UHGV virus genome: UHGV-0276404
Direction: 5' to 3' (one strand)
Length of the DNA stretch: 14,666 nt
Source: a virus
Position 1 is the stretch's first letter. The number at the start of each line of letters is the position of its first letter. Below are positions 1-14,020 of the stretch, piece by piece. A program made the translations under genes and the position numbers. Below the pieces are notes generated by a model, which was given only the letters and a program-made list of their open reading frames with translations, was not told where the DNA came from and searched no databases.

Positions 1-90
1 CAGCAGCACAGCAGCACAGCAGCACAGCAGCACAGCAGCACAGCAGCACAGCAGCACAGCAGCACAGCAGCACAGCAGCACAGCAGCACA
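1..90. repeat. Perfect 8-bp tandem repeat (CAGCAGCA)n, about 11 copies, truncated by the window start
   Basis: Read directly: period-8 repeat from position 1 to 90, ending at gtgatataa. True length unknown because the window begins inside it. Confidence 0.95.
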
Positions 91-105
91 GTGATATAAT
101 TATAA

Positions 106-3224: not shown

Positions 3225-3327
3225 GTTAAATCTCCAGATAGTCGCAGCACCCGTTGCGCCGCATATCTGGTCATTCTATTACCTAAAAAACCACATATGG
3301 ATAGACAACCCATAAATACGAACAGAT

Positions 3328-3343
3328 ATTACCTTTCAGGTGA
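3328..3343. promoter_or_regulatory. Operator-like inverted repeat ATTACCTTTCAGGTGA (copy 1 of the ATTACC-N5-GGTRA family)
   Basis: Intergenic, upstream of the 3420 gene. An extra ATTACC half-site at 3288-3293 and the shared string AACCACATATG also occur upstream of the tRNA unit (10708-10730). Confidence 0.45.
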
Positions 3344-3380
3344 TTTGCAAAACGTGCTGGATAGCAAACAAATTATTTGT

Positions 3381-3400
3381 TACTGTATAAATATACAGTT
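3381..3400 (+). promoter_or_regulatory. LexA (SOS) box TACTGTATAAATATACAGTT
   Basis: CTGT-N8-ACAG with an AT-rich spacer, near-perfect match to the E. coli LexA consensus TACTGTATATATATACAGTA; 20 nt upstream of the ATG at 3420 and overlapping a plausible -35/-10. Confidence 0.75.
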
Positions 3401-3419
3401 ATCGTATGGAGAAGATAAG

Positions 3420-3677
3420 ATGCAGCAGTATCACTATCCACTGGAAGACGGATTTACCGAAAGGATTCACACGCCGGGAGGCGTCAGATCACTGGTGGAG
3501 GGATCGCACTTGATGAAATTACTCCGGGATCTCGATAAGGATGGATTTAATGTCGATGGCCCACTTGCCGAACTGACTGCACTGATTAACTACGTCACCA
3601 GGTCACAGATGTCTATGCGGGATCTGCAAACACATCTCGACTATTGTGCCGAACAATTACGAAAACAAACCCGGTAA
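3420..3677 (+). CDS. Small Tum-like antirepressor candidate (85 aa), homologous to the C-terminal domain of the Bro-N antirepressor at 4826-5536
   Basis: ATG at 3420 with GGAG 9 nt upstream. The longer ORF-track start (3297) would place the LexA box and operator inside the coding sequence, so the internal start is preferred. Shares Y..PL..G....IH.P ... G.V..L.E.S.LM.LL..L..DG..V.G..AELT ... LRD.QTH..Y with the Ant C-terminus. Confidence 0.6.
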   Translation: MQQYHYPLEDGFTERIHTPGGVRSLVEGSHLMKLLRDLDKDGFNVDGPLAELTALINYVTRSQMSMRDLQTHLDYCAEQLRKQTR

Positions 3678-3683
3678 ATTTAA

Positions 3684-3701
3684 AGGCCGCAAGAGCGGCC
3701 T
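3684..3701. terminator. Bidirectional GC hairpin AGGCCGC-AAGA-GCGGCCT between convergent genes
   Basis: 7-bp GC-rich stem with 4-nt loop and T-rich flanks on both strands; near-identical to the hairpin at 6553-6570. Confidence 0.55.
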
Positions 3702-4428
3702 ATCGTTTCGCTTTGTGCTCATCCCAGCACGTTTTGCACCATGCCATTAATCCGTCCGCATTTTGATTATTAGGGTAAAAGCTGGTTCGTTTTCTGCGGA
3801 CATTACAAATTGGGCACCACTTCATATGGCGTGTATTCTTTGGGCCATCGAGACACCTTGCACACCACTTAGTCAATCCATCTGGATTTTTTGACGATTT
3901 CCTGAATTTTTCATATGGTAGGTTTATTCTGCATCGCAAGCACTGCTTGCTACCACTTGAAACTCTGTTAGCTGATTCTTCTTTTGGCGGCGATACAGAA
4001 GGTATTCTTGCTGGCTCTGATACTGCCTGAGGTGCTTTTTTAGATGACTGAGACGATATGTCATCACCAGGGAATCTTCCATGATATGCCGGACGCGTTG
4101 ACACTCCAGGTGGAAGCTCAGCTGTAAACGGCTTTGGCTGAATCAGTTGCCTCTCTTTTGCTAACTCCTGCTGTTTATAATATGTCTGGATTACCGCACT
4201 ATCATAAGCAGGAGGTGCGGAAATATTAGGCGCATTACCTCCAGTTTTTTGAAACTGAGTAGAGGTGTGTTCTATCACCTGTGTACGATTAATCGTTATC
4301 TCCCCATCTTCGGTCTTTATCGTTTTGTTATGATTAACGACCGTACGATCAGAGATCTTAGTCTTGTTCTGGTTGATAACGTAAATAATCACCGCAACCA
4401 CACCAACAACTATCCAGAAAACTTCCAT
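3700..4428 (-). CDS. Membrane-anchored protein with four C-terminal CxxC motifs (two zinc-ribbon-like modules); function unknown
   Basis: 242-aa ORF; ATG at 4428 with GAGG 7 nt upstream. N-terminal hydrophobic helix (MEVFWIVVGVVAVIIYVI), then CLRC...WCARC...WCPIC...WCKTC. Transcribed divergently from the antirepressor. Confidence 0.7.
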   Translation of the reverse strand: MEVFWIVVGVVAVIIYVINQNKTKISDRTVVNHNKTIKTEDGEITINRTQVIEHTSTQFQKTGGNAPNISAPPAYDSAVIQTYYKQQELAKERQLIQPKPFTAELPPGVSTRPAYHGRFPGDDISSQSSKKAPQAVSEPARIPSVSPPKEESANRVSSGSKQCLRCRINLPYEKFRKSSKNPDGLTKWCARCLDGPKNTRHMKWCPICNVRRKRTSFYPNNQNADGLMAWCKTCWDEHKAKR

Positions 4429-4447
4429 TGCTTTTCCTCACAATAAC

Positions 4448-4464
4448 ATTACCTTAAAGGTAAT
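4448..4464. promoter_or_regulatory. Perfect 17-bp palindrome ATTACCTTAAAGGTAAT (operator-like, copy 2)
   Basis: Read directly; sits in the divergent promoter region between the 3700-4428 gene and ant. A partial copy (CTTTCAGGTGA) follows at 4471-4481. Confidence 0.5.
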
Positions 4465-4540
4465 ATCTTGCTTTCAGGTGATCAAGCGTTAAACGCAACC
4501 AACCAAATACGGTTGATTTTAATATTTCTTCGCGTTTATC

Positions 4541-4556
4541 ATTACCTTTGCGGTAA
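4541..4556. promoter_or_regulatory. Operator-like inverted repeat ATTACCTTTGCGGTAA (copy 3)
   Basis: Same TTACC-N5-GGTAA geometry, about 270 bp upstream of the ant start. Confidence 0.45.
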
Positions 4557-4825
4557 ATTTACATCGCACTCCTCTTGTGCCATAGTAATCGGGTACTGGC
4601 AAAATCCAGTGCCGGGATTGGCGTCCCGAGTTACTAAGTGGCGCATACCACGCCAGACGTGGTTTTTTTATGCGTTAAGCACAGCTATATCCGAATTATG
4701 GTGGGCTGGGCAGGGGTCCGAAAGGACGCCGGTACCACTTAGGCCGGTACGCCAACCTTGTCCAGTTCACCACCAGTAATTGGCGTTGCGGTGGTGATTA
4801 AAATCACTAAGTGGAGATAACCACC

Positions 4826-5536
4826 ATGGCTAATGCTCAAACTGCCATCTTCAAATTTGAATCTGTTAACCCTATCCGTTCCATCATTATCGATGGCCAA
4901 CCATGGTTTGTAGCCCAAGACGTTTGTAGTGCGCTGCGTATCCAAAACGTCACCCAAGCACTTGAAAAACTGGATGATGATGAAAGGTCTATGTTCAACA
5001 TAGGGCATGAACATCGTGCAATTTTTGACAGCCGAGTAAAAGAGATCAACATCATCTCCGAGTCAGGCCTCTACACACTGATCCTCCGCTGCCGCGACGC
5101 AGTGACACCAGGCACTATCCCCTACCGCTTTCGTAAATGGGTTACAGGTGAGGTTCTTCCTCAGATCCGCCGCACCGGAAGTTACATTAAAAACTCGCTC
5201 CCGCAGGAAGAACGCATAAAGATGGTTGCCGACCAGGTTGCAAACGCCACAGCATCAGCAGTGATGCAGGCAATGAAGATAGAGAACAAAACCTACAGCG
5301 CCCCGCTGAAGCCCGGCTACCGCAGCCTGATTCACTCGCCGTCTGGTGTTCTCGGCCTGACGGAGAACTCACTGCTGATGAATCTGCTGAACCAGTTACA
5401 GGAAGACGGGCACGACGTATCGGGCGCGGCGGCGGAGCTGACCACCATGTTCTGCTACATCGTCGGTGTGAGCAAATGCCTGCGTGATATCCAGACGCAC
5501 GCGGAATACATCAACGACAAGGCAGGGTTCTTCTGA
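4826..5536 (+). CDS. ant: Phage antirepressor with N-terminal Bro-N domain
   Basis: ATG at 4826 with GGAG at 4813-4816 (the ORF-track GTG at 4811 overlaps the SD). N-terminus FKFESVNPIRSIIIDGQPWFVAQDVCSALRI...GLYTLILRCRDAVTPGTIPYRFRKWVTGEVLPQI fits the Bro-N/AntA fold. Confidence 0.85.
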   Translation: MANAQTAIFKFESVNPIRSIIIDGQPWFVAQDVCSALRIQNVTQALEKLDDDERSMFNIGHEHRAIFDSRVKEINIISESGLYTLILRCRDAVTPGTIPYRFRKWVTGEVLPQIRRTGSYIKNSLPQEERIKMVADQVANATASAVMQAMKIENKTYSAPLKPGYRSLIHSPSGVLGLTENSLLMNLLNQLQEDGHDVSGAAAELTTMFCYIVGVSKCLRDIQTHAEYINDKAGFF

Positions 5537-5607
5537 CGGGCGGTGGCACATGGATGTGCTTTTAAATAATTCTGTACGATTGCAGACAGGGTGGTGAATA
5601 GAGTACT

Positions 5608-5623
5608 ATTACCTTACGGGTGA
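5608..5623. promoter_or_regulatory. Operator-like inverted repeat ATTACCTTACGGGTGA (copy 4)
   Basis: Intergenic, downstream of ant and upstream of the leader ORF and terminator that precede the 5753 gene. Confidence 0.4.
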
Positions 5624-5660
5624 TCCATAGCGATTAGGCACCGATACAGGAGGAGCCCAC

Positions 5661-5693
5661 ATGAGAAAATTTGACGAGTACGAAGGCGTTTAA
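5661..5693 (+). CDS. Possible 10-codon leader peptide (MRKFDEYEGV)
   Basis: Strong SD (CAGGAGGAG) 5 nt upstream of ATG 5661; stop at 5691-5693; followed 20 nt later by an intrinsic terminator. Too short to support by composition alone. Confidence 0.3.
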   Translation: MRKFDEYEGV

Positions 5694-5712
5694 CATTCGG
5701 ATAGTTTAATGA

Positions 5713-5737
5713 CGGGGCCATTAGGCCCCGTTTTCAT
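5713..5737 (+). terminator. Intrinsic terminator / attenuator CGGGGCC-ATTA-GGCCCCG + TTTTCAT
   Basis: 7-bp GC stem, 4-nt loop, U-run; ends 5 nt before the SD of the 5753 gene. Confidence 0.6.
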
Positions 5738-5752
5738 GTCTGGAGACAGTTT

Positions 5753-6292
5753 GTGTTAAGTGAAGAAATGCAATTTGCCATGGCTGTGGCTCAAATCGTA
5801 AGTGCAGTCGCGGTTTCGCTTGGCTTGTTCATAGCTATCGCTACTATTATTTATAATGTAAATACAGCGAGAAAAGTACACACTTCAGTATTCCTTGGTG
5901 AAAGCAGGTTTGATGTAGATTATAAGAAAGGCCTATCTACTATGCGCCGCATTCACGAGTCGAACAAATCATTCCGCTCTTATATGTATCCAAGCAATGG
6001 GCAGGCTGATCTTACGGATGAAGAAAAGATAGAGAAGAGAGAAATAATTTACTGTCTAGGTTTCTACGAACGCATGGCTGTGAGCGTGAAGCGGAAAACT
6101 TATGATGAGACCATGATTAAGGAAGTATTTTACAGCTCCGTTGTAAATAACTATCAGATTGCGCTACCTCTTATACAAGCTATTAGAGAAAAAGAAAACA
6201 TAAACACATATTTTAAAGAATATGAATGGTTAGCCACACGATGGAAGGATTGTCCATTGAAGGATAAATCCCCGTGGTACAAGTTTTGGTAA
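5753..6292 (+). CDS. Membrane-anchored moron protein (179 aa), unknown function
   Basis: GTG at 5753 with GGAGA at 5742-5746 (alternative ATG at 5768). N-terminal hydrophobic helix (AMAVAQIVSAVAVSLGLFIAIATIIY) followed by a charged soluble domain; AT-rich by eye. Confidence 0.7.
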   Translation: MLSEEMQFAMAVAQIVSAVAVSLGLFIAIATIIYNVNTARKVHTSVFLGESRFDVDYKKGLSTMRRIHESNKSFRSYMYPSNGQADLTDEEKIEKREIIYCLGFYERMAVSVKRKTYDETMIKEVFYSSVVNNYQIALPLIQAIREKENINTYFKEYEWLATRWKDCPLKDKSPWYKFW

Positions 6293-6316
6293 GCCCGCGG
6301 CGAGGGCTTTTTTGTG
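6291..6316 (+). terminator. Intrinsic terminator AAGCCC-GCGGCGA-GGGCTT + TTTTTG
   Basis: Hairpin directly after the stop at 6290-6292, followed by a U-run. Confidence 0.5.
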
Positions 6317-6385
6317 GACGAAACAAAAGTCAGTGCTACACTCATTGACGCCACATTGAGGTGGCTTATAGATGGAAATGTCACA

Positions 6386-6547
6386 ATGAAAAAAGCATTT
6401 GCTGCACTGTTCGTTTTGTTGTCTCTGGTAGCTTCAACTCAGGCCTTTGCCGGTCGTTGTCAGCACGACAGCGATACTGCCGCTGACGGCTCCCGCTGCG
6501 GTGGGCGTTCTGCGGATTCCCGCCCTGGCGGCGGTGGCATTCGTTAA
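6386..6547 (+). CDS. Small secreted peptide (53-aa precursor with a cleavable signal peptide; ~31-aa mature peptide with two Cys and a Gly-rich tail)
   Basis: MKKAFAALFVLLSLVASTQAFA / GRCQHDSDTAADGSRCGGRSADSRPGGGGIR. The ORF-track start (6314) overlaps the preceding terminator, so the ATG at 6386 is preferred. SD is weak (GGA 9 nt upstream), and the apparent TTGACG / TATAGA promoter lies so close that the mRNA may be near-leaderless. Confidence 0.5.
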   Translation: MKKAFAALFVLLSLVASTQAFAGRCQHDSDTAADGSRCGGRSADSRPGGGGIR

Positions 6548-6552
6548 AAACA

Positions 6553-6570
6553 AGGCCGCGAAAGCGGCCT
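6553..6570. terminator. Bidirectional GC hairpin AGGCCGC-GAAA-GCGGCCT between convergent genes
   Basis: Paralogue of the 3684-3701 hairpin; T-rich flanks on both strands (TGTTTTTAA on the minus side, TTCCTTTT on the plus side). Confidence 0.6.
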
Positions 6571-6582
6571 GTGACATGTCAC
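6571..6582. repeat. Perfect 12-bp palindrome GTGACATGTCAC (copy 1 of 3)
   Basis: Read directly; immediately abuts the terminator hairpin and overlaps the stop codon of the 6579-6875 gene. Confidence 0.9.
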
Positions 6583-6875
6583 GTTCCTTTTCTGAATGAT
6601 AGCCATTCGAAAAATGATGACATTCCACCGCAGACAATAGCAAAGATGATCCCACCAAAGAAGAGAAGGCCAGCCTGCCACCACTCCCACCGCCATACAT
6701 CCACAGCGCCAACCATACCAACAATCGCTCCAACAAATGGAATATAGCTCACGATGAAAGCAATGGGGGCTGCAATTATCCAGTGCAATCCCCACCATGA
6801 TTCAAGCCCAGCCATAATTGCTGCCAACTGAAAAAGACCAACGACGATATAAACAATGAATCCTATCGCTTGCAT
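6579..6875 (-). CDS. Small multi-pass membrane protein (98 aa), last gene of the virion operon; holin-like or immunity-like
   Basis: ATG at 6875 with GGTGA 4 nt upstream. Three to four hydrophobic segments, Trp-rich (WRWEWW). Overlapping alternative-frame ORFs (6434-6736, 6544-6798) are judged spurious. Confidence 0.6.
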   Translation of the reverse strand: MQAIGFIVYIVVGLFQLAAIMAGLESWWGLHWIIAAPIAFIVSYIPFVGAIVGMVGAVDVWRWEWWQAGLLFFGGIIFAIVCGGMSSFFEWLSFRKGT

Positions 6876-6883
6876 GTAGTCAC

Positions 6884-7255
6884 CTATTTATTTTTTAGCT
6901 TTTCATCCATAGCAAATTTCGTTGCTAAATTTTCACCATCTGATTTAAGCCTTCCAATAAATTTCCGCTTACCGTCTTGAGAGGAATTTAAATAGTATAT
7001 ATTTGATTCAGCAATCTTTTGTATGTACGACTCGCATGACACAACCGAAGCTTTGGATATAGAATCAACACTTTCTCCTGTCTTAGCGTATTTTACGACC
7101 TGCCCTTTTATACATCCAAAATATTCCATTGTATGCTTTTTAGAATCCTCCAGTGTTTCCCCATTTTTAGGCTGAATCATTAACGGTGAGGTAGTATCTG
7201 CAAAAGATTTTACAACTAAAAGCATAAGAATAATCATTAATATAATTCTGTTCAT
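6884..7255 (-). CDS. Secreted/periplasmic protein (123 aa) with a signal peptidase I-type signal peptide; AT-rich
   Basis: ATG at 7255 lies 1 nt after the TAA of the transglycosylase gene, with GGGAAG upstream (translational coupling). MNRIILMIILMLLVVKSFA / DTT... signal peptide, no lipobox; two Cys in the mature part. Confidence 0.65.
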   Translation of the reverse strand: MNRIILMIILMLLVVKSFADTTSPLMIQPKNGETLEDSKKHTMEYFGCIKGQVVKYAKTGESVDSISKASVVSCESYIQKIAESNIYYLNSSQDGKRKFIGRLKSDGENLATKFAMDEKLKNK

Positions 7256-7256
7256 A

Positions 7257-8366
7257 TTACTTCCCTAGCATGAACTGCGATGGTGGGATCAGAAAGTCGT
7301 TACCCTGTTCACGCTCAACACGGCGCTGATAACGCTCAAGAGAGCCTGGGTCGCCAATCTGTTTAATCCAGCCGTCAACCTTTCCTGGGCCAGCGTTATA
7401 GGCAGCTACTGCCAGAACCGGGTTATTGTCGTATTTCTTCATCTGCGCGCCGAAATAAGCTTGCCCCAAGCGGGCATTATAGCGCGGGTCATTCAACCAT
7501 TTATCTCGGTCCCACGGCACACCAGCAAGGCGGGCAGCTTCGGGGCCAGTATCTTCCGTCACCTGCGCTACGCCAACAGCGCCTTTTGGCGACACCAGAG
7601 GTGTTCCGTCCTTTCCGTACTGATTTCCGCCACTCTCCTGCCAGATTATTGCAGAGAATAACTGCGCCTCACTCGGTGTATCGGTTACCTCAATCTTGCC
7701 GTTCGGCCCCATCATCTGTTGATACATCGGCACATACCACGCCTCCGCCGCACCGTTCGCGGCATTCTCGCGCCACGAAACCCAGTTCTGTTCGATCTCT
7801 TCCTGACTCTGGCCGTGGGCTTCGCCGTAAGCGATGATGCTATGATATGCCTTCAATCCTGCCTGGTTTGCCATTGTCGGGTTACGGAACTGCATCGATA
7901 GGTTTTTTAGTGTCGCATCCTGCATATCCGCCTCATACTGGCGAACCTGTCCTATTTCGTACCTCCCGGCCTGCGTAGTGAACTGAATACGCTGTTGCTG
8001 CGCCTGCTGCATGAAAGCATTACGAGCCTGTTCATCTGGCAGCGACATAGCCAGTTGTTCAACCTGAGCATCAAACTGCTGCGTATACTCATGGCCTTTT
8101 CCAATAGCATTTTTCCCTTTCAGGTTAAGCAATCCTGTTTCAGGATTATTCAGCAGATCACTGCCTGTCTGACTGAGTTTAAGGGATGCCTCCTGAACAA
8201 AGGCAATATTGGCACGCTGTTTTGCCTGACCAAAAACATCAATTGCCTCTGTCCCTGCCCGAACAAAAGCATCACCAATACCTGGCTGAGAAAACGTCTG
8301 CAAGCCTGCTGACTGAACTCCACGACTCTCAACCTGACGTCCGGATACTGTTGGTACGACTGGCAT
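7257..8366 (-). CDS. Internal-virion-type protein with C-terminal lytic transglycosylase (SLT) domain
   Basis: Start ATG at 8366-8364 overlaps the upstream stop (TAATG) with GGAGGA 5 nt upstream; the ORF-track N-terminal extension to 8441 is rejected. SLT motifs IIWQESGGNQYG...GAVGVAQV...AYNAGPGKV; Gln-rich N-terminal region. Confidence 0.85.
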   Translation of the reverse strand: MPVVPTVSGRQVESRGVQSAGLQTFSQPGIGDAFVRAGTEAIDVFGQAKQRANIAFVQEASLKLSQTGSDLLNNPETGLLNLKGKNAIGKGHEYTQQFDAQVEQLAMSLPDEQARNAFMQQAQQQRIQFTTQAGRYEIGQVRQYEADMQDATLKNLSMQFRNPTMANQAGLKAYHSIIAYGEAHGQSQEEIEQNWVSWRENAANGAAEAWYVPMYQQMMGPNGKIEVTDTPSEAQLFSAIIWQESGGNQYGKDGTPLVSPKGAVGVAQVTEDTGPEAARLAGVPWDRDKWLNDPRYNARLGQAYFGAQMKKYDNNPVLAVAAYNAGPGKVDGWIKQIGDPGSLERYQRRVEREQGNDFLIPPSQFMLGK

Positions 8367-8911
8367 TATAATCCTCCGGGTAATCTGGTTCCTGCTGCTG
8401 CCCCGATTGGCGCAGGAGTGCTTTGAGTAAACGGACTCCACGTCCCACCAAACATCTGGTACGCACCGTATGCCTTCAGAGGCGCAGTGAGCAATGTTGT
8501 TGCTGCTCCTACATTCCCCTGTTTACGGGCTGAACTGGCTTCTGCTTTATAGTTGGCAGCCTGCACCTGATAACCGTAAGCCTCGCGTTGCGCGTTATTC
8601 ACCGTCGTTAGCGAATCAAGAGCACCAAACTGAGCAGTGTCACCAAATATATCCAGCGCGTTACCTGTAGATAAATCAGCGCCGGTAGCCCCCATTGTCG
8701 CCGCCTGTGTACCAAGCCGCTGTCGGGTCTCTCTGCGCCGTTGCTCAGCTTCAGCGTTACCTCTGTTTATTGCATCATTTGCCTGAGCTGTGGCTATATC
8801 TGCGTTCGCTTCTGCAACCTTCGAGGCATACTTTCCCTGTTGGTACTGGGTGTATGCCTGAATGCCACTCATGGCGAGCATTGCGCCACCAGCAATAACC
8901 GGATCGCACAT
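8366..8911 (-). CDS. Putative internal virion / ejection protein (181 aa, Ala/Gln/Gly-rich)
   Basis: ATG at 8911 overlaps the upstream stop (TAATG); operon context between a virion-type protein and the SLT protein. No recognisable catalytic motif. Confidence 0.55.
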   Translation of the reverse strand: MCDPVIAGGAMLAMSGIQAYTQYQQGKYASKVAEANADIATAQANDAINRGNAEAEQRRRETRQRLGTQAATMGATGADLSTGNALDIFGDTAQFGALDSLTTVNNAQREAYGYQVQAANYKAEASSARKQGNVGAATTLLTAPLKAYGAYQMFGGTWSPFTQSTPAPIGAAAGTRLPGGL

Positions 8912-9375
8912 TATTTTCTCTCCATGTGAAATCTGTGGAAATTAAGACCAAGAGCACCATAAGGCGCGGCTTCTTCAAGCCTGAATCCAAGCCAGTGCAG
9001 CCATGCTTTGGCAACATGGTTTCGCTCATCGACGTAGTTTTCCAGGCGCGGATAAACTGCCAGCATCTGCTGCAATACAGGGCGGCAGTGGCGAAGAAAT
9101 GTCTTCTGATATTTTTCAATACGGCTGGTTCCTACCAGCCAGGGCGTACCATTGCCACCGATCATTGACGCCGGAGATACGCCAAACATGGTTACCAGTT
9201 CTCCGTTCGCAAATCCTGACCAGGCCATAGTCGCAGTGCGAAGACCAACACGCAGCGCATCTTCGGTAGTCATCAGCGATACCGCATACAGTTCGTCAAT
9301 ATCAGCCTGACGAACATCCGGCAAAATCATCTGAAGATGCTCTTCGGTAGCGGGAACAATTCGAACATCGATCAT
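8911..9375 (-). CDS. Hypothetical virion-operon protein (154 aa); weak GNAT-like C-terminal motif
   Basis: ATG at 9375 overlaps the upstream stop (TGATG). C-terminal NHVAKAWLHWLGFRLEE loosely resembles the acetyl-CoA-binding region of GNAT acetyltransferases; recalled from memory, unverified. Confidence 0.5.
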   Translation of the reverse strand: MIDVRIVPATEEHLQMILPDVRQADIDELYAVSLMTTEDALRVGLRTATMAWSGFANGELVTMFGVSPASMIGGNGTPWLVGTSRIEKYQKTFLRHCRPVLQQMLAVYPRLENYVDERNHVAKAWLHWLGFRLEEAAPYGALGLNFHRFHMERK

Positions 9376-9965
9376 CAGAATCCCCCAACAGTAAGGCGAG
9401 GAATAACGGCAAGAACAGACAGCGGCAACGGATCAAGCTGACGGATTTTTACACGTCCGTTTTTGCCCCAGTTACTGTCCAGTTTCACTTCTACTTTTCC
9501 GGTAGCATCATCAACAGGATCATCGTAGAACTCGAATTCACGCTGTGGATATTCGTACCATTTACCGCCGGGCGTAGTCGCCCAGATGCCGCGACTGGCA
9601 TTCACAACCAGAGTAACGGAGGGGATCACCTGTTTTTTGTCCAGCAGCGTTTCCTGTCCGTTAATGTTGATATCCAGTGTTTCGAATTCAGCAGTTATTG
9701 GCAGGCCGATGTGCACTACAGCCCCCGGAGATTCCAGCGTGACGGCACCTCCGGAAACCACTTTCTGTGGTTCCACGTTCGCATCAGAGAGAATGTTTAC
9801 GGTCTGGCCTTCAAGATGAGACAGGCCTCCAAATGTCCGGCGCGCCATCTGCCAGTTCGTGGTGGCCACATTCCTGAGGGATGGCGGGACGTTCCTGTTA
9901 GCACGAACCACTACAGCGGTATTGCTGGTTACAGAAATAATGTCGCAACGTAATTCTTTTGACAC
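9375..9965 (-). CDS. Hypothetical structural-operon protein; 5' end and true start uncertain (possible fusion remnant)
   Basis: The frame is open from 9965, but the first in-frame start is GTG with no SD and it overlaps the portal-like ORF by 37 nt in another frame. The internal ATG at 9848 also lacks a good SD. Confidence 0.45.
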   Translation of the reverse strand: MSKELRCDIISVTSNTAVVVRANRNVPPSLRNVATTNWQMARRTFGGLSHLEGQTVNILSDANVEPQKVVSGGAVTLESPGAVVHIGLPITAEFETLDININGQETLLDKKQVIPSVTLVVNASRGIWATTPGGKWYEYPQREFEFYDDPVDDATGKVEVKLDSNWGKNGRVKIRQLDPLPLSVLAVIPRLTVGGF

Positions 9966-10459
9966 CTCATCGCCAGTATCAGGATCAGTTCCGGTATCGG
10001 GAATGGCATTGTGCGAATGATGTCCTCGTCATCCTCCAGCACTGCCATTGCACCAGTGCTGTATGTGCCGAGGCTTCCGTATAACTGCGGCAGCGACTGA
10101 TAGAGATTCGACTTATTGAACATATCGTTCATGCGGTTCTGCACCGCCTCAAGCCACAACTTAACAGGGCCATAATCCATCATTTCAGGATCTGGCGTAG
10201 CCAGGCGAAACCACGGACGCGCGGGGCTTGTGATGCCTGACATCATGCCGCTGGCGAGAGTGCGCGCCGCCATAGTCCCGGTCGAATCAATAATGCGTGT
10301 ATTGCGTCGATCGTTACGGTTGACCTCAGAAGTCAGAAAGCGGGAACCACGCGGGTTGATGTAATCACTCAACTCGCGCCAGTGCGGCTCGAACGACTGA
10401 CGCTCGCTTTCAAGTTGTGCGAACTGTTTGTTCAATCGCTCTTTAGTTGTTTCCGCCAT
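9929..10459 (-). pseudogene. Portal (head-tail connector) N-terminal fragment, T7 gp8-like, only ~176 aa
   Basis: ATG at 10459 with GGAG 8 nt upstream. ERQSFEPHWRELSDYINP...TLASGMMSGITSPARPWFRLA matches the N-terminal pattern of podovirus portals as I recall T7 gp8 (DRAPYETRAQNCAQYTIP...LASKLMLALFPMQTWMRLT). The ORF ends after 176 aa, whereas full portals are 500+ aa. Confidence 0.5.
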
Positions 10460-10473
10460 TTCAATGACTCCGG

Positions 10474-10680
10474 TTACTGACCAAGCAGCGTTTTACCGCT
10501 GGTATTAGCGGTTGATGTGTCACCCTGAGAACCGGTAAGCAGCGTAGAACTACGACCAGCAGCAGCGCGACGGCGACGAGTTTCTTCGTCGCGGGCATCA
10601 ACAACGGCGGCATCCTGCTCCTGTGGTGCTGCCTGAACTTCTGGTGTTGCAGGCACTGACGGTGAGCTACCCATGCACAT
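10474..10680 (-). CDS. Small Ser/Thr/Ala-rich protein (68 aa) upstream of the portal fragment; possibly T7 gp6.7-like
   Basis: ATG at 10680 preceded by CGGAGTCATTGAT, a near-duplicate of the translation-initiation region at 10459-10475. Preferred over the overlapping frame 10461-10700, whose stop would overlap the next gene's SD. The gp6.7 analogy rests only on size, position and the MC- start. Confidence 0.4.
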   Translation of the reverse strand: MCMGSSPSVPATPEVQAAPQEQDAAVVDARDEETRRRRAAAGRSSTLLTGSQGDTSTANTSGKTLLGQ

Positions 10681-10769
10681 ATCAATGACTCCGTACGCAA
10701 TTAAATTATTACCAATTTAACCACATATGATTTATTTATCGTAGACAGTTGACATTTAACGCACGAATT

Positions 10770-10785
10770 ATTACCTTTCAGGTAA
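10770..10785. promoter_or_regulatory. Operator-like inverted repeat ATTACCTTTCAGGTAA (copy 5), overlapping a candidate promoter (TTGACA at 10750-10755)
   Basis: TTGACA, a 15-nt spacer, then the motif; heads the plus-strand tRNA unit. An upstream half-site at 10708-10713 and AACCACATATG at 10719-10729 mirror the arrangement at 3288-3343. Confidence 0.45.
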
Positions 10786-11107
10786 GCAAATGGTTCATTC
10801 CGGTTATTAACCTGACTGGCTTGTCGTTAAATTGAACAGGTGGAGTGAGCTTTTATTTTGAGCAGTACGGCGTATGGCACATGCGCCGATAGCGGTCTGG
10901 ATACGTTTAAGGGGCACCCTCCCTTGCTCGGGCAAACGAACCAGGTAGCCGGAATGTGCAAGTCGAGCGGTTTTATTCCGCGCACGGGGATTCACCATCC
11001 CGGCGATTCGGTGTGACGCCTCGGAAGAGACGAGGGTACAACGATGAGAGCATTTATGGAGCCGCGACAAAGTGTGGCGCCTTAACAGGCTAAGTGCTCT
11101 CAGCGTT

Positions 11108-11184
11108 GTGGCATTAGCTCAGTTGGACAGAGCAACCGCCTTCTAAGCGGTTGGTCGCAGGTTCGAATCCTGCATGCCACGCCA
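11108..11184 (+). tRNA. tRNA-Arg (anticodon UCU, reads AGA)
   Basis: Hand-folded cloverleaf: acceptor GTGGCAT/ATGCCAC, D-arm GCTC-AGTTGGACA-GAGC, anticodon arm ACCGC-CTTCTAA-GCGGT, variable TGGTC, T-arm GCAGG-TTCGAAT-CCTGC, discriminator G and encoded CCA. 77 nt. Confidence 0.9.
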
Positions 11185-11270: not shown

Positions 11271-11347
11271 CAGCAGGACGCCATTGCGATGACTTCATGC
11301 TGTAAACCAGTACAGCCACGGAAGGCATAACTCATTGCTTCCAGTTC

Positions 11348-11743: not shown

Positions 11744-11755
11744 GTGACATGTCAC
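11744..11755. repeat. Perfect 12-bp palindrome GTGACATGTCAC (copy 2 of 3)
   Basis: Read directly; 5 nt after the stop of the 11383-11739 gene and directly before a hairpin terminator. Confidence 0.9.
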
Positions 11756-13305: not shown

Positions 13306-13898
13306 TGATTACCATCCTGACGTTCTTTGAGTCGCTTCCTGGCTGCTGCTATGCGATCAGCAATTGTCACATTCACATTAACATCCAGACGTTCTTTGAA
13401 CGCGTTGACATCAACATGCTTACCAATCAGCTCAAGGTTCTTCACCTTGTCAGGCCATTTAATTTTTTTGAGGATTGTCTCTATCGAATCCTCGTTCATG
13501 TTCATGATGGTCGATGACAGATCAAAGCCACTAAGCGTAGTGCGCCAGATTTTCGGCCACTCACGGATTGGTTTAAGGCTCCCATCGTCGTTGAGGATGT
13601 CGATCACATCCATCTGGTCGATCTCCACCAGGCGCATAAGAACGTAATCGGCACTGACGCGCATTCGTTTGTTGCGCTCCTCCATCAGCTCGGCAATCCG
13701 TTTTTGAATGCGTTCATCGCGCATCATGACACTGGCTTTAACTGCCGCTGTATTTGGGGAGAATCCTGCGTTAATCGCTGCCTGAGTCTGGTTTTCAGGC
13801 GTTTTGATGTATGACTGGCAATAAGCCTCCTGCATTGCTGTTAGTGGCTTAAATTGCGTTGATTTGCGTTTATAGGTTTTAGGTTCAGCAGGCATCAT
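13302..13898 (-). CDS. terS: Terminase small subunit
   Basis: KPLTAMQEAYCQSYIKTPENQTQAAINAGFSPNTAAVKASVMMRDERIQKRIAELM is a typical TerS DNA-binding N-terminus. Start placed at the ATG pair 13898/13895, because an intrinsic terminator (13941-13967) lies inside the ORF-track N-terminal extension from the TTG at 13976. Confidence 0.8.
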   Translation of the reverse strand: MMPAEPKTYKRKSTQFKPLTAMQEAYCQSYIKTPENQTQAAINAGFSPNTAAVKASVMMRDERIQKRIAELMEERNKRMRVSADYVLMRLVEIDQMDVIDILNDDGSLKPIREWPKIWRTTLSGFDLSSTIMNMNEDSIETILKKIKWPDKVKNLELIGKHVDVNAFKERLDVNVNVTIADRIAAARKRLKERQDGNQ

Positions 13899-13940
13899 AA
13901 CCACCGTGGTAATAGTTACCGTTGTGGTAATAGTACCATG

Positions 13941-14008: not shown

Positions 14009-14020
14009 GTGACATGTCAC
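14009..14020. repeat. Perfect 12-bp palindrome GTGACATGTCAC (copy 3 of 3)
   Basis: Read directly; overlaps the stop codon of the 14017-14355 gene, 41 nt from the terS-proximal terminator. Confidence 0.9.

What the first reader, a model, noticed from the sequence alone, without database searches (positions are those of the whole stretch)
3328..10785. A 16-17 bp inverted repeat (ATTACC-N5-GGTRA) heads every plus-strand unit in the window
Five copies sit at 3328-3343, 4448-4464 (a perfect 17-bp palindrome), 4541-4556, 5608-5623 and 10770-10785, all intergenic and each upstream of a plus-strand unit: the Tum-like gene, ant, the leader/moron unit and the tRNA unit. Two of them (3288-3343 and 10708-10785) share further flanking sequence (an upstream ATTACC half-site plus AACCACATATG). 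The 17-bp pseudo-symmetric ACC...GGT geometry resembles lambdoid CI-type operators, though the sites are dispersed rather than in OL/OR triplets. This looks like a single regulon in which one DNA-binding protein, not identifiable in the window, co-controls antirepressors, morons and the tRNA.
Basis: seen in the sequence. Interest (0 to 1): 0.78.

Follow-up and report, generated by a model that had tools for sequence, protein, structure and literature searches.

The report
Prophage repressor operators scattered across genome
The repeated 17-bp inverted repeat is real and is almost certainly the binding site of the prophage's main lysogeny repressor (Rep, encoded outside the window), which silences many separate transcription units; the same sites are already annotated in the related phage epsilon15, so this is a correct but ordinary finding.

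Summary
All five reported copies of ATTACC-N5-GGTRA exist at the stated coordinates, against 0 expected by chance. The window is an epsilon15/phiV10-like (Uetakevirus) E. coli prophage. In the nearest complete prophage the same motif clusters on both sides of the repressor gene: an OR triplet and an OL pair. It also recurs at orthologous intergenic positions in phiV10, epsilon15, SPC32H and a Klebsiella relative. The epsilon15 RefSeq record labels exactly these sites as repressor binding sites. The repressor is a homolog of SPC32H Rep (PDB 5D50). In phiV10, 13 of 15 sites fall in the 6.7% of the genome that is intergenic (P≈5e-14). Sites S1, S3 and S5 overlap the -10/+1 of sigma-70-like plus-strand promoters with the same geometry as PL. 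So the single-regulon reading is right, and the missing protein is identified. Binding and repression are inferred, not tested here. The shared "AACCACATATG" flank is a separate, unannotated conserved palindrome in late-promoter regions. Novelty is low.

The parts
3328..3344 (+). S1: Rep operator ATTACCTTTCAGGTGAT, between the tailspike gene (minus) and the SPC32H-type ant gene (plus)
   Evidence: It is conserved in phiV10 and epsilon15 while the flanks diverge. The orthologous epsilon15 site 19895-19911 is annotated as repressor-binding. It overlaps TAGACA(3302)-17-GATATT(3325-3330).
4448..4464 (.). S2: perfect palindromic operator ATTACCTTAAAGGTAAT, 20 nt upstream of the minus-strand 242-aa gene and 93 bp upstream of S3. 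It is probably a distal, high-affinity partner site.
   Evidence: Promoter geometry is weak on both strands. Perfect palindromes are the distal members of the OL and DUF1064 pairs.
4465..4481 (.). S2b: half-site (…CAGGTGAT) abutting S2, 17 bp from S2 and 76 bp from S3
   Evidence: Read from the sequence. The 17- and 76-bp spacings recur in OR and OL of epsilon15 and SPC32H.
4541..4557 (+). S3: operator ATTACCTTTGCGGTAAA at the promoter(s) of the isrK-C4-ant(BRO-N) unit
   Evidence: It overlaps TTGATT(4513)-18-TATCAT(4537-4542) and abuts the -35 of TTTACA(4558)-17-CATAGT(4581-4586).
5608..5624 (+). S4: operator ATTACCTTACGGGTGAT upstream of a 10-codon leader ORF (5661-5693), a terminator and the DUF4760 gene (5753-6292)
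   Evidence: The promoter match is only marginal (score 7).
10770..10786 (+). S5: operator ATTACCTTTCAGGTAAG between the gp3 late operon (minus) and the tRNA-Arg unit (plus)
   Evidence: It overlaps TAGACA(10742)-18-AATTAT(10766-10771). The orthologous epsilon15 site 2931-2947 is annotated as repressor-binding.
13915..13931 (-). S6: operator ATTACCACAACGGTAAC, the first of two tandem sites between a terminator and terS
   Evidence: The orthologous epsilon15 site 12-27 is annotated as repressor-binding.
13897..13913 (-). S7: operator ATTACCACGGTGGTTAT, overlapping the SD and start codon of terS
3383..3398 (.). LexA box CTGTATAAATATACAG in the ant promoter
   Evidence: It is conserved in phiV10 and epsilon15.
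3420..3677 (+).
   Evidence: PDB 5D50 chain E, the SPC32H anti-repressor, E=7e-46.
4593..4777 (+). isrK sRNA (4593-4669) and C4 antisense RNA (4694-4777) in the leader of the BRO-N antirepressor gene (4826-5536)
   Evidence: Rfam scores of 63.5 and 66 bits, both above gathering. Bro-N Pfam match, E=1e-19.
11108..11184 (+). tRNA-Arg(UCU), preceded by a 320-nt structured leader starting at S5
3273..3302 (-). Conserved composite late-promoter block upstream of the tailspike gene: motif 2 (ATCCATATGTGGTT), N5, the Rep half-site GGTAAT, and a -10 TAGAAT starting at its last T
10703..10732 (-). The same composite block upstream of gp3 (AATCATATGTGGTT-AAATT-GGTAAT-AATTT). Its 17-mer starts exactly 62 bp from S5.
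   Evidence: 100% conserved between epsilon15 and the E. coli phages.
4501..4514 (+). Motif 2 copy AACCAAATACGGTT, overlapping the -35 TTGATT of the S3 promoter

Best explanation
The 17-bp inverted repeats are operators of Rep, the prophage's main immunity repressor. Rep is a 194-aa, non-cleavable, SPC32H/epsilon15-type repressor encoded about 5.4 kb beyond the window's right end in the nearest complete prophage. In a lysogen, Rep, which is reported to bind DNA as a tetramer, occupies an OR triplet and an OL pair around its own gene. It also occupies roughly ten further sites placed at the starts of separate, terminator-insulated transcription units. Within the window, S1, S3 and S5, and less clearly S4, overlap the -10/+1 of sigma-70-like plus-strand promoters in the same register as PL. 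Rep would therefore occlude RNA polymerase at these promoters and keep several units off: a second promoter of the LexA-controlled small antirepressor, the isrK-C4-BRO-N antirepressor operon, the DUF4760 unit and the tRNA-Arg unit. S2 and S2b are probably the distal, cooperative partners of S3, and may also act on the divergent 242-aa gene. S6 and S7 lie between a terminator and terS and would block the late packaging operon, by roadblock or by local occlusion. DNA damage cleaves LexA, Ant is then made and strips Rep from DNA, and all units are released together. Shown here: the existence of the sites, their statistics, their conservation, their position relative to genes and promoter-like hexamers, and the homology of Rep and Ant. 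Inferred: that Rep binds these sites (supported by curated annotation, not tested here), that binding represses, and which strand each site serves.
For: The motif gives 7 hits against 0 expected. In the complete prophage L002 it flanks the repressor gene (44328/44358/44375 and 45087/45149) and occurs at 41958/42020 and 43990. The layout is the same in phiV10, epsilon15, SPC32H and a Klebsiella Uetakevirus, with recurrent spacings of 17, 30, 62 and 76 bp. RefSeq NC_004775.2 annotates 'protein_bind: repressor' at seven coordinates, and all seven are motif hits. In phiV10, 13 of 15 sites are intergenic against an intergenic fraction of 6.7%, P=5e-14; using the annotated terS start instead, P=9e-11. 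Half-sites are conserved while spacers vary, and the centre is A/T in 28 of 29 sites. Operator blocks are conserved between E. coli and Salmonella phages while the flanks diverge. Rep matches 5D50_A at E=4e-42 and Ant matches 5D50_E at E=7e-46. Rep has no peptidase domain. Rep is described as a tetramer binding palindromic sites (PMC9638917). Overexpressing the ZX5 repressor cuts holin and endolysin transcripts by more than 99.9% (PMC9782041). Promoter-geometry scores are PL 10 and S1, S3 and S5 9 each, whereas only 0.46% of random positions reach 9.
Against: No binding or expression data exist for this phage. The primary SPC32H and epsilon15 papers could not be read. The epsilon15 features may themselves be predictions. 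The S1 plus-strand promoter is not conserved in epsilon15, and S1 lies about 60-70 bp upstream of both the LexA-controlled ant promoter and the late tailspike promoter, so simple occlusion may not apply there. S2, S4, S6 and S7 lack convincing promoter geometry. No relative with a different operator specificity was found, so operator-repressor covariation could not be tested.
Confidence: 0.85

Rival explanations
1. Rep binds the sites, but S1 and S5 act mainly on the minus-strand late promoters for the tailspike and the gp3 head operon rather than on the plus-strand units. A Rep tetramer on the full operator would loop to the GGTAAT half-site that ends at the first base of the late -10.
For: A conserved composite block (motif 2-N5-GGTAAT, with the -10 starting at its last T) lies 50 bp from S1 and exactly 62 bp from S5. 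The 62 bp matches the canonical inter-operator spacing, and the block is 100% conserved in epsilon15 and SPC32H. Rep is described as a tetramer able to engage two palindromes. The S1 plus-strand promoter is not conserved in epsilon15.
Against: The half-site gives only 7 of the 12 specified operator positions. The lysis late promoter has no such half-site. S1, S3 and S5 have highly non-random plus-strand promoter geometry. The two roles are not mutually exclusive.
Confidence: 0.3
2. The motif is the site of another phage regulator (the Cro-like protein, or the phrog_536 regulator upstream of terS) rather than of Rep.
For: In lambdoid phages Cro shares operators with CI. A Cro-like gene lies across the OR triplet from rep.
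Against: Curated annotation assigns the sites to the repressor. A lytic regulator binding at the -10/+1 of some ten lytic promoters would shut down its own programme. Clustering on both sides of rep is the hallmark of an immunity repressor.
Confidence: 0.07
3. The repeats are chance AT-rich promoter sequence, or RNA hairpins acting after transcription.
For: The sites sit in AT-rich intergenic DNA. A 6-bp stem could form.
Against: Shuffles expect 0 hits. Half-sites are invariant while spacers vary freely, with no compensatory changes. The same motif occurs at orthologous places in five genomes. The stem is weak and lacks a T-tract.
Confidence: 0.01

Closest known systems
Rep operators of epsilon15 / SPC32H (Uetakevirus) and the Rep-Ant-LexA switch
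   Same: The 17-bp consensus ATTACC-N5-GGTAAT is identical. The positions are orthologous: before terS, before gp3, between ant and the tailspike gene, at OL, at OR, and as the 62-bp pair. Rep and Ant are homologous (5D50). A LexA box lies in the ant promoter.
   Different: This E. coli lineage has extra sites (S2, S2b, S3, S4) attached to genes that epsilon15 lacks: the 242-aa gene, the isrK-C4-BRO-N ant unit and the DUF4760 gene. Its Rep is only 42% identical to SPC32H Rep. The phiV10-type records carry no operator annotation.
Lambda CI operators (OL/OR)
   Same: Both are 17-bp pseudo-symmetric sites with ACC and GGT at equivalent positions (from memory, lambda is TATCACCGC.GCGGTGATA). Both have a triplet between divergent repressor and cro genes, and both overlap the promoter -10/-35.
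   Different: Rep has no S24 peptidase domain and is inactivated by an antirepressor rather than by RecA-stimulated cleavage. Its operators are also dispersed over the whole genome. It is reported to bind as a tetramer in trans.
Phage P1 C1 repressor with dispersed operators, and the immI operon (c4-icd-ant)
   Same: The primary repressor acts at many scattered operators. An antirepressor operon is doubly controlled, by the primary repressor at its promoter and by a C4 antisense RNA (PMC8198154). A C4 RNA is present here (Rfam).
   Different: P1 operators are asymmetric (from memory), and C1 is unrelated to Rep. Here the antirepressor is a BRO-N protein preceded additionally by isrK. An icd equivalent was not looked for.
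Mycobacteriophage L5/L1 repressor 'stoperators'
   Same: One repressor has many sites spread through the genome in short intergenic gaps. A roadblock role is possible for S6 and S7.
   Different: L5 sites are asymmetric 13-mers whose action depends on orientation (PMC1934351 abstract; details from memory). Here the sites are palindromic and mostly promoter-associated.

Membership tests
Uetakevirus (epsilon15/SPC32H-type) Rep operator set | 17-bp inverted repeat ATTACC-N5-GGTAAT | tested here: met
   There are seven sites with 0-1 mismatch in the window.
Uetakevirus (epsilon15/SPC32H-type) Rep operator set | Clusters of the motif on both sides of the rep gene (OR between rep and cro; OL downstream of rep) | tested here: met
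   L002 sites 44328/44358/44375 and 45087/45149 flank rep at 44446-45030. These lie outside the window.
Uetakevirus (epsilon15/SPC32H-type) Rep operator set | A Rep homolog is encoded by the same element | tested here: met
   The L002 Rep matches 5D50_A at E=4e-42 and is 42% identical to SPC32H Rep. It is not in the window itself. The window matches L002 at 99.9% identity.
Uetakevirus (epsilon15/SPC32H-type) Rep operator set | Sites at positions orthologous to those annotated as repressor-binding in epsilon15 | tested here: met
   S1 corresponds to 19895-19911, S5 to 2931-2947 and S6 to 12-27.
Uetakevirus (epsilon15/SPC32H-type) Rep operator set | Rep physically binds the sites and represses | not testable with these tools
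   This needs EMSA, footprinting, ChIP or reporters.
Lambdoid CI/LexA-like repressor-operator system | The repressor carries a RecA-stimulated autocleavage (Peptidase S24) domain | tested here: not met
   Pfam gives only HTH-type hits and no S24 domain. The system works like CI operators but is not a member of this family.
Lambdoid CI/LexA-like repressor-operator system | 17-bp pseudo-palindromic operators in OL/OR triplets overlapping PL/PR | tested here: met
   The OR triplet has spacings of 17 and 30 bp. PL is TTGACA-17-AATTAT, overlapped by the proximal operator.
P1-type immI module (primary-repressor operator + C4 antisense RNA + antirepressor) | C4 antisense RNA upstream of the antirepressor gene | tested here: met
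   RF01695 scores 66 bits against a gathering score of 45, at 4694-4777. The BRO-N gene starts at 4826.
P1-type immI module (primary-repressor operator + C4 antisense RNA + antirepressor) | Primary-repressor operator at the operon promoter | tested here: inconclusive
   S3 overlaps one promoter-like site and abuts the -35 of another. No TSS or binding data are available.
P1-type immI module (primary-repressor operator + C4 antisense RNA + antirepressor) | An icd-like ORF and C4 target repeats in the ant leader | not tested
   This was not examined.
LexA-controlled small antirepressor (SPC32H Ant) | An Ant homolog with a LexA box in its promoter | tested here: met
   5D50_E matches at E=7e-46. 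CTGTATAAATATACAG lies at 3383-3398, 22 nt upstream of the ATG.

The most novel reading that the evidence does not exclude
The most novel reading not excluded concerns the Rep half-site embedded in the fully conserved late-promoter blocks (AAYCAYATRTGGTT-N5-GGTAAT, with the -10 starting at its last T). This half-site lies exactly one canonical inter-operator distance (62 bp) from S5. A single Rep tetramer could therefore silence late head and tailspike promoters directly by looping. It would compete there with a still unidentified late activator that recognises the 14-bp palindrome. Meanwhile, Rep operators at both antirepressor genes would create a positive-feedback latch that makes induction irreversible. 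None of this is annotated for any Uetakevirus.
Probability: 0.2. Interest if true: 0.45.

Novelty: already known. Interest (0 to 1): 0.25.

Why it matters
The genome is cut into many terminator-insulated units, and each is held off directly by the immunity repressor. Release comes through a LexA-controlled antirepressor, with a second antirepressor under P1-like C4 RNA control. This is useful for annotating phiV10-type prophages, whose records lack operator features, and for engineering phiV10-based reporter phages. It does not change current understanding, because the same sites are already annotated in epsilon15 and Rep/Ant have been studied structurally in SPC32H. The two other conserved palindromes seen in passing are the parts that may be new.

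Tried and rejected
1. Operator-repressor covariation across heteroimmune relatives could not be tested. Every Rep homolog found in the phage collection (42-100% identity, from E. coli, Enterobacter, Klebsiella and Salmonella phages) goes with the same half-sites.
2. The primary papers (Kropinski 2007, Kim & Ryu 2013, Kim et al. 2016) are not held, and a text search for the motif found nothing relevant. Experimental status therefore rests on the RefSeq annotation and on secondary descriptions.
3. I first read S2 as a minus-strand promoter-operator for the 242-aa gene (TTAACG...GATATT). The systematic geometry score did not support this (score 5, 19-nt spacer). I now treat S2 as a distal partner site.
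4. The RNA-hairpin and chance explanations are rejected on the statistics and on invariant half-sites with free spacers.
5. I tried to identify the factor for the second palindrome. The phrog_536 regulator has no Pfam, NCBIfam or PDB match, so the factor is unassigned.
6. Rfam at a permissive threshold finds no family for the tRNA leader.
7. I did not use the large protein-database, structure-prediction or metagenome tools. The main question was settled without them.


Full report
**Observation.** An exact search for ATTACCNNNNNGGTRA returns the five reported sites.
- S1 is at 3328-3343.
- S2 is at 4448-4463. It also hits on the minus strand at 4449-4464, because ATTACCTTAAAGGTAAT is a perfect 8+1+8 palindrome.
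- S3 is at 4541-4556, S4 at 5608-5623 and S5 at 10770-10785.
- A sixth site, S6, lies at 13916-13931 on the minus strand.
- No hit occurred in any of 200 dinucleotide-preserving shuffles.
- With one mismatch allowed, a seventh site (S7, 13897-13913) appears 18 bp from S6 and directly abuts the terS start codon.
- A half-site (4465-4481) abuts S2.

One small correction applies: the upstream ATTACC half-site beside S1 is at 3278-3283, not 3288.

**What the window is.** The window is an epsilon15/phiV10-like (genus Uetakevirus) E. coli prophage.
- It is 99.9% identical to a prophage next to yfgI in E. coli SW070919 (locus L002).
- Relative to L002 it lacks an IS3 insertion and carries two deletions, L002 19466-25220 and 27878-34422, with 5- and 9-bp junction overlaps. 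Most head and tail genes are therefore missing.
- No repressor gene lies in the window.

**Where else the motif occurs.** In L002 the same motif clusters around the repressor gene (44446-45030).
- Three sites lie between it and the divergent cro-like gene (44328, about 44358, and 44375).
- Two lie downstream, 62 bp apart (45087 and 45149). The proximal one overlaps the -10 of a near-consensus promoter, TTGACA-17-AATTAT, which I call PL.
- One follows the cro terminator (43990).
- A second pair spaced 62 bp apart (41958 and 42020) sits before the DUF1064 gene.
- phiV10, epsilon15, SPC32H and a Klebsiella Uetakevirus show the same layout, with recurring spacings of 17, 30, 62 and 76 bp. They also carry sites before the lysis cassette and before int.
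- In phiV10, 13 of 15 sites with at most 2 mismatches fall in the 6.7% of the genome that is intergenic. The binomial P is 5e-14, or 9e-11 if the long annotated terS start is kept.
- The ACC and GGT cores are invariant. The 5-nt spacer varies freely apart from an A/T centre in 28 of 29 sites. The left half of that matrix is invariant partly because I oriented each site by its better half.
- Alignments of the tailspike-ant and tRNA-gp3 intergenic regions show the operators conserved between E. coli and Salmonella phages while the neighbouring sequence diverges.

**Which protein.**
- The epsilon15 RefSeq record carries seven 'protein_bind: repressor (lysogeny)' features: 12-27, 2931-2947, 19895-19911, 32479-32494, 32554-32570, 32616-32632 and 35906-35922. 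Every one is a motif hit. Three are orthologous to S6, S5 and S1.
- The L002 repressor matches chain A of PDB 5D50, the SPC32H Rep, at E=4e-42 and is 42% identical over its full length.
- It has HTH-type Pfam hits and no S24 peptidase domain.
- A LexA box, CTGTATAAATATACAG (3383-3398), lies in its promoter and is conserved in phiV10 and epsilon15.
- A secondary source describes Rep as binding palindromic sites as a tetramer whose DNA-binding domain pairs come from different dimers, and Ant as a tetramer that breaks this assembly (PMC9638917).
- In the E. coli relative ZX5, overexpressing the repressor abolishes free phage and cuts holin and endolysin transcripts by more than 99.9%. Overexpressing the BRO-N antirepressor lowers lysogeny (PMC9782041).
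- I could not read the primary epsilon15 and SPC32H papers. That Rep binds these exact sequences therefore rests on the curated annotation and on the classic location around rep. It is not a test made here.

**How the window's sites probably work.** I scored each site for a sigma-70-like promoter. The -10 hexamer had to end within operator positions 1-4, with a -35 hexamer 16-18 nt upstream.

| Site | Promoter elements | Score | Note |
|---|---|---|---|
| PL | TTGACA-17-AATTAT | 10 | reference case |
| S1 | TAGACA-17-GATATT | 9 | plus strand |
| S3 | TTGATT-18-TATCAT | 9 | plus strand |
| S5 | TAGACA-18-AATTAT | 9 | plus strand |
| S4 | not recorded here | 7 | marginal |
| phiV10 lysis site | not recorded here | 7 | marginal |

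- Only 0.46% of random positions reach a score of 9. The opposite orientations of S1, S4 and S5 give nothing.
- S3 also abuts the -35 of a second promoter, TTTACA-17-CATAGT. Its predicted start coincides with the 5' end of an isrK sRNA match (4593-4669). That is followed by a C4 antisense RNA match (4694-4777) and the BRO-N antirepressor gene. This mirrors the P1 immI operon, where the antirepressor is held off both by the primary repressor at the promoter and by C4 RNA (PMC8198154).
- S2 is a perfect palindrome, like the distal members of the OL and DUF1064 pairs. Together with S2b it lies 17 and 76 bp from its neighbours, spacings that recur in the family. It has no convincing promoter on either strand. 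I read it as the distal cooperative partner of S3, possibly also acting on the divergent 242-aa gene.
- S6 and S7 lie between an intrinsic terminator and terS without a -35. They may act as a roadblock or as local occlusion for the packaging operon.

**Caveats on individual sites.**
- The S1 plus-strand promoter is not conserved in epsilon15.
- S1 lies roughly 60-70 bp upstream of both the LexA-box ant promoter and the late tailspike promoter, by my reading of the sequence.
- S1 and S5 each sit next to a highly conserved minus-strand block, discussed next. A role in late-promoter repression by looping is a live rival and is not exclusive of the main explanation.

**The shared flank.**
- It occurs 4-5 times per genome against 0.4 expected. 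It is found before gp3, the tailspike gene, the lysis cassette and the first gene after the cro terminator. In the window it also overlaps the -35 of the S3 promoter.
- In the gene direction the order is always Rep operator, 4-37 nt, palindrome, 7-10 nt, then a TAnnnT hexamer. In phiV10's lysis promoter that hexamer is a perfect TATAAT.
- Before gp3 and the tailspike gene, the palindrome is followed after 5 nt by a Rep half-site GGTAAT, whose last T begins the -10.
- For gp3 this 17-mer starts exactly 62 bp from S5, and the whole block is identical in epsilon15, SPC32H and the E. coli phages.
- This looks like an activator-dependent late or middle promoter element. The factor is unknown: the phrog_536 regulator encoded just upstream of terS has no informative match.

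**Comparison and verdict.**
- The feature works like lambda CI operators, with the same 17-bp ACC/GGT geometry and an OR triplet.
- It is not a member of the CI/LexA-like family, because the cleavage domain is absent.
- Its genome-wide dispersal parallels P1 C1 and mycobacteriophage L5.
- It is a straightforward member of the Uetakevirus Rep operator set.

What this lineage adds is the extra operators on accessory units (S2-S4). The unannotated second and third palindromes are what may be new.

Noticed in passing
window 3289-3302 (-), 10719-10732 (-), 4501-4514 (+); phiV10 L001 3305, 20918, 24736, 33132; epsilon15 L003 2985, 24748, 33749; SPC32H L004 3228, 24826, 34799: A second conserved 14-bp palindrome, AAYCAYATRTGGTT, occurs 4-5 times per genome against about 0.4 expected. 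It always lies between a Rep operator and a -10-like hexamer upstream of late or middle units (gp3, tailspike, lysis, the first gene after the cro terminator). It is not annotated in any record and its binding factor is unknown.
   Followed up: partly
window 6571-6582, 11744-11755, 14009-14020; same three positions in L002, phiV10, epsilon15, SPC32H: The perfect 12-bp palindrome GTGACATGTCAC occurs at three orthologous positions in every genome checked. All copies are exact except the third phiV10 copy, which has one mismatch and spans the ends of the linear record. In the direction of transcription the order is always gene stop, palindrome, 0-40 nt, intrinsic terminator. The three places are the end of the structural operon, the end of the tRNA/gp49_66 unit, and after the phrog_536 regulator gene ahead of terS. 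It is one base shorter than matS (GTGACRNYGTCAC, from memory). At the third position GTGACA-17/18-CATGAT/TAAATT resembles a PR'-like promoter followed by a terminator.
   Followed up: partly
window 4593-4669 and 4694-4777: Rfam matches to isrK (63.5 bits) and to C4 antisense RNA (66 bits) lie in tandem in the leader of the BRO-N antirepressor gene (4826-5536). This is a P1 immI-like, Gifsy-1-like arrangement inside a Uetakevirus.
   Followed up: partly
window 1-92; L002 10486-10891: The window starts inside an 8-bp tandem repeat (GCACAGCA). In the complete prophage the repeat has about 51 perfect copies (406 bp). They form the 3' end of a 416-aa ORF that looks to me like a hexapeptide-repeat acetyltransferase (not checked against any family library) and that converges on the tailspike gene. 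The unit length is not a multiple of three, so copy-number changes would shift the C-terminal frame. This is a candidate phase-variable or assembly-breaking locus.
   Followed up: partly
window junctions at about 2631-2635, 7348-7352 and 9995-10003: Relative to the 99.9%-identical prophage in E. coli SW070919, the window lacks an IS3 insertion and has two deletions of 5.8 and 6.5 kb with 5- and 9-bp junction overlaps. These remove the portal, protease, capsid and parts of the tail and ejection genes. The window is therefore a defective prophage or a collapsed assembly.
   Followed up: partly
window 10787-11107: A 320-nt leader lies between S5 and tRNA-Arg(UCU). It folds more stably than shuffles (z=-2.8) and is partly conserved in epsilon15, which has no tRNA there and annotates an RNase III site. 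No Rfam family matches.
   Followed up: partly
window 5661-5693 and 5700-5745: A 10-codon ORF (MRKFDEYEGV) with a strong SD is followed by a terminator-like hairpin, just downstream of S4 and upstream of the GTG-initiated DUF4760 gene. It may be a leader-peptide attenuator.
   Followed up: no
window 3700-4428 (-): A 242-aa protein has an N-terminal hydrophobic segment and two C-terminal Cys-rich repeats that weakly match Stc1, endonuclease VII and Lar-like zinc-ribbon profiles (phrog_6762, function unknown). It is present in TL-2011b-type phages and absent from phiV10.
   Followed up: no
window 11300-11315: A second CTGT-N8-ACAG match (CTGTAAACCAGTACAG) lies between the tRNA and the gp49_66 gene. 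Its centre is GC-richer than a typical LexA box and about 0.2 such hits are expected by chance, so it is probably fortuitous.
   Followed up: no
phiV10 L001 26869-26885; epsilon15 L003 26881-26897; SPC32H L004 26959-26975: A conserved operator-like site, ATTACCYTAAAGGTATA, lies about 58 nt upstream of int. In epsilon15 it overlaps a feature annotated as an integrase-binding site, so its assignment to Rep or Int is ambiguous.
   Followed up: no
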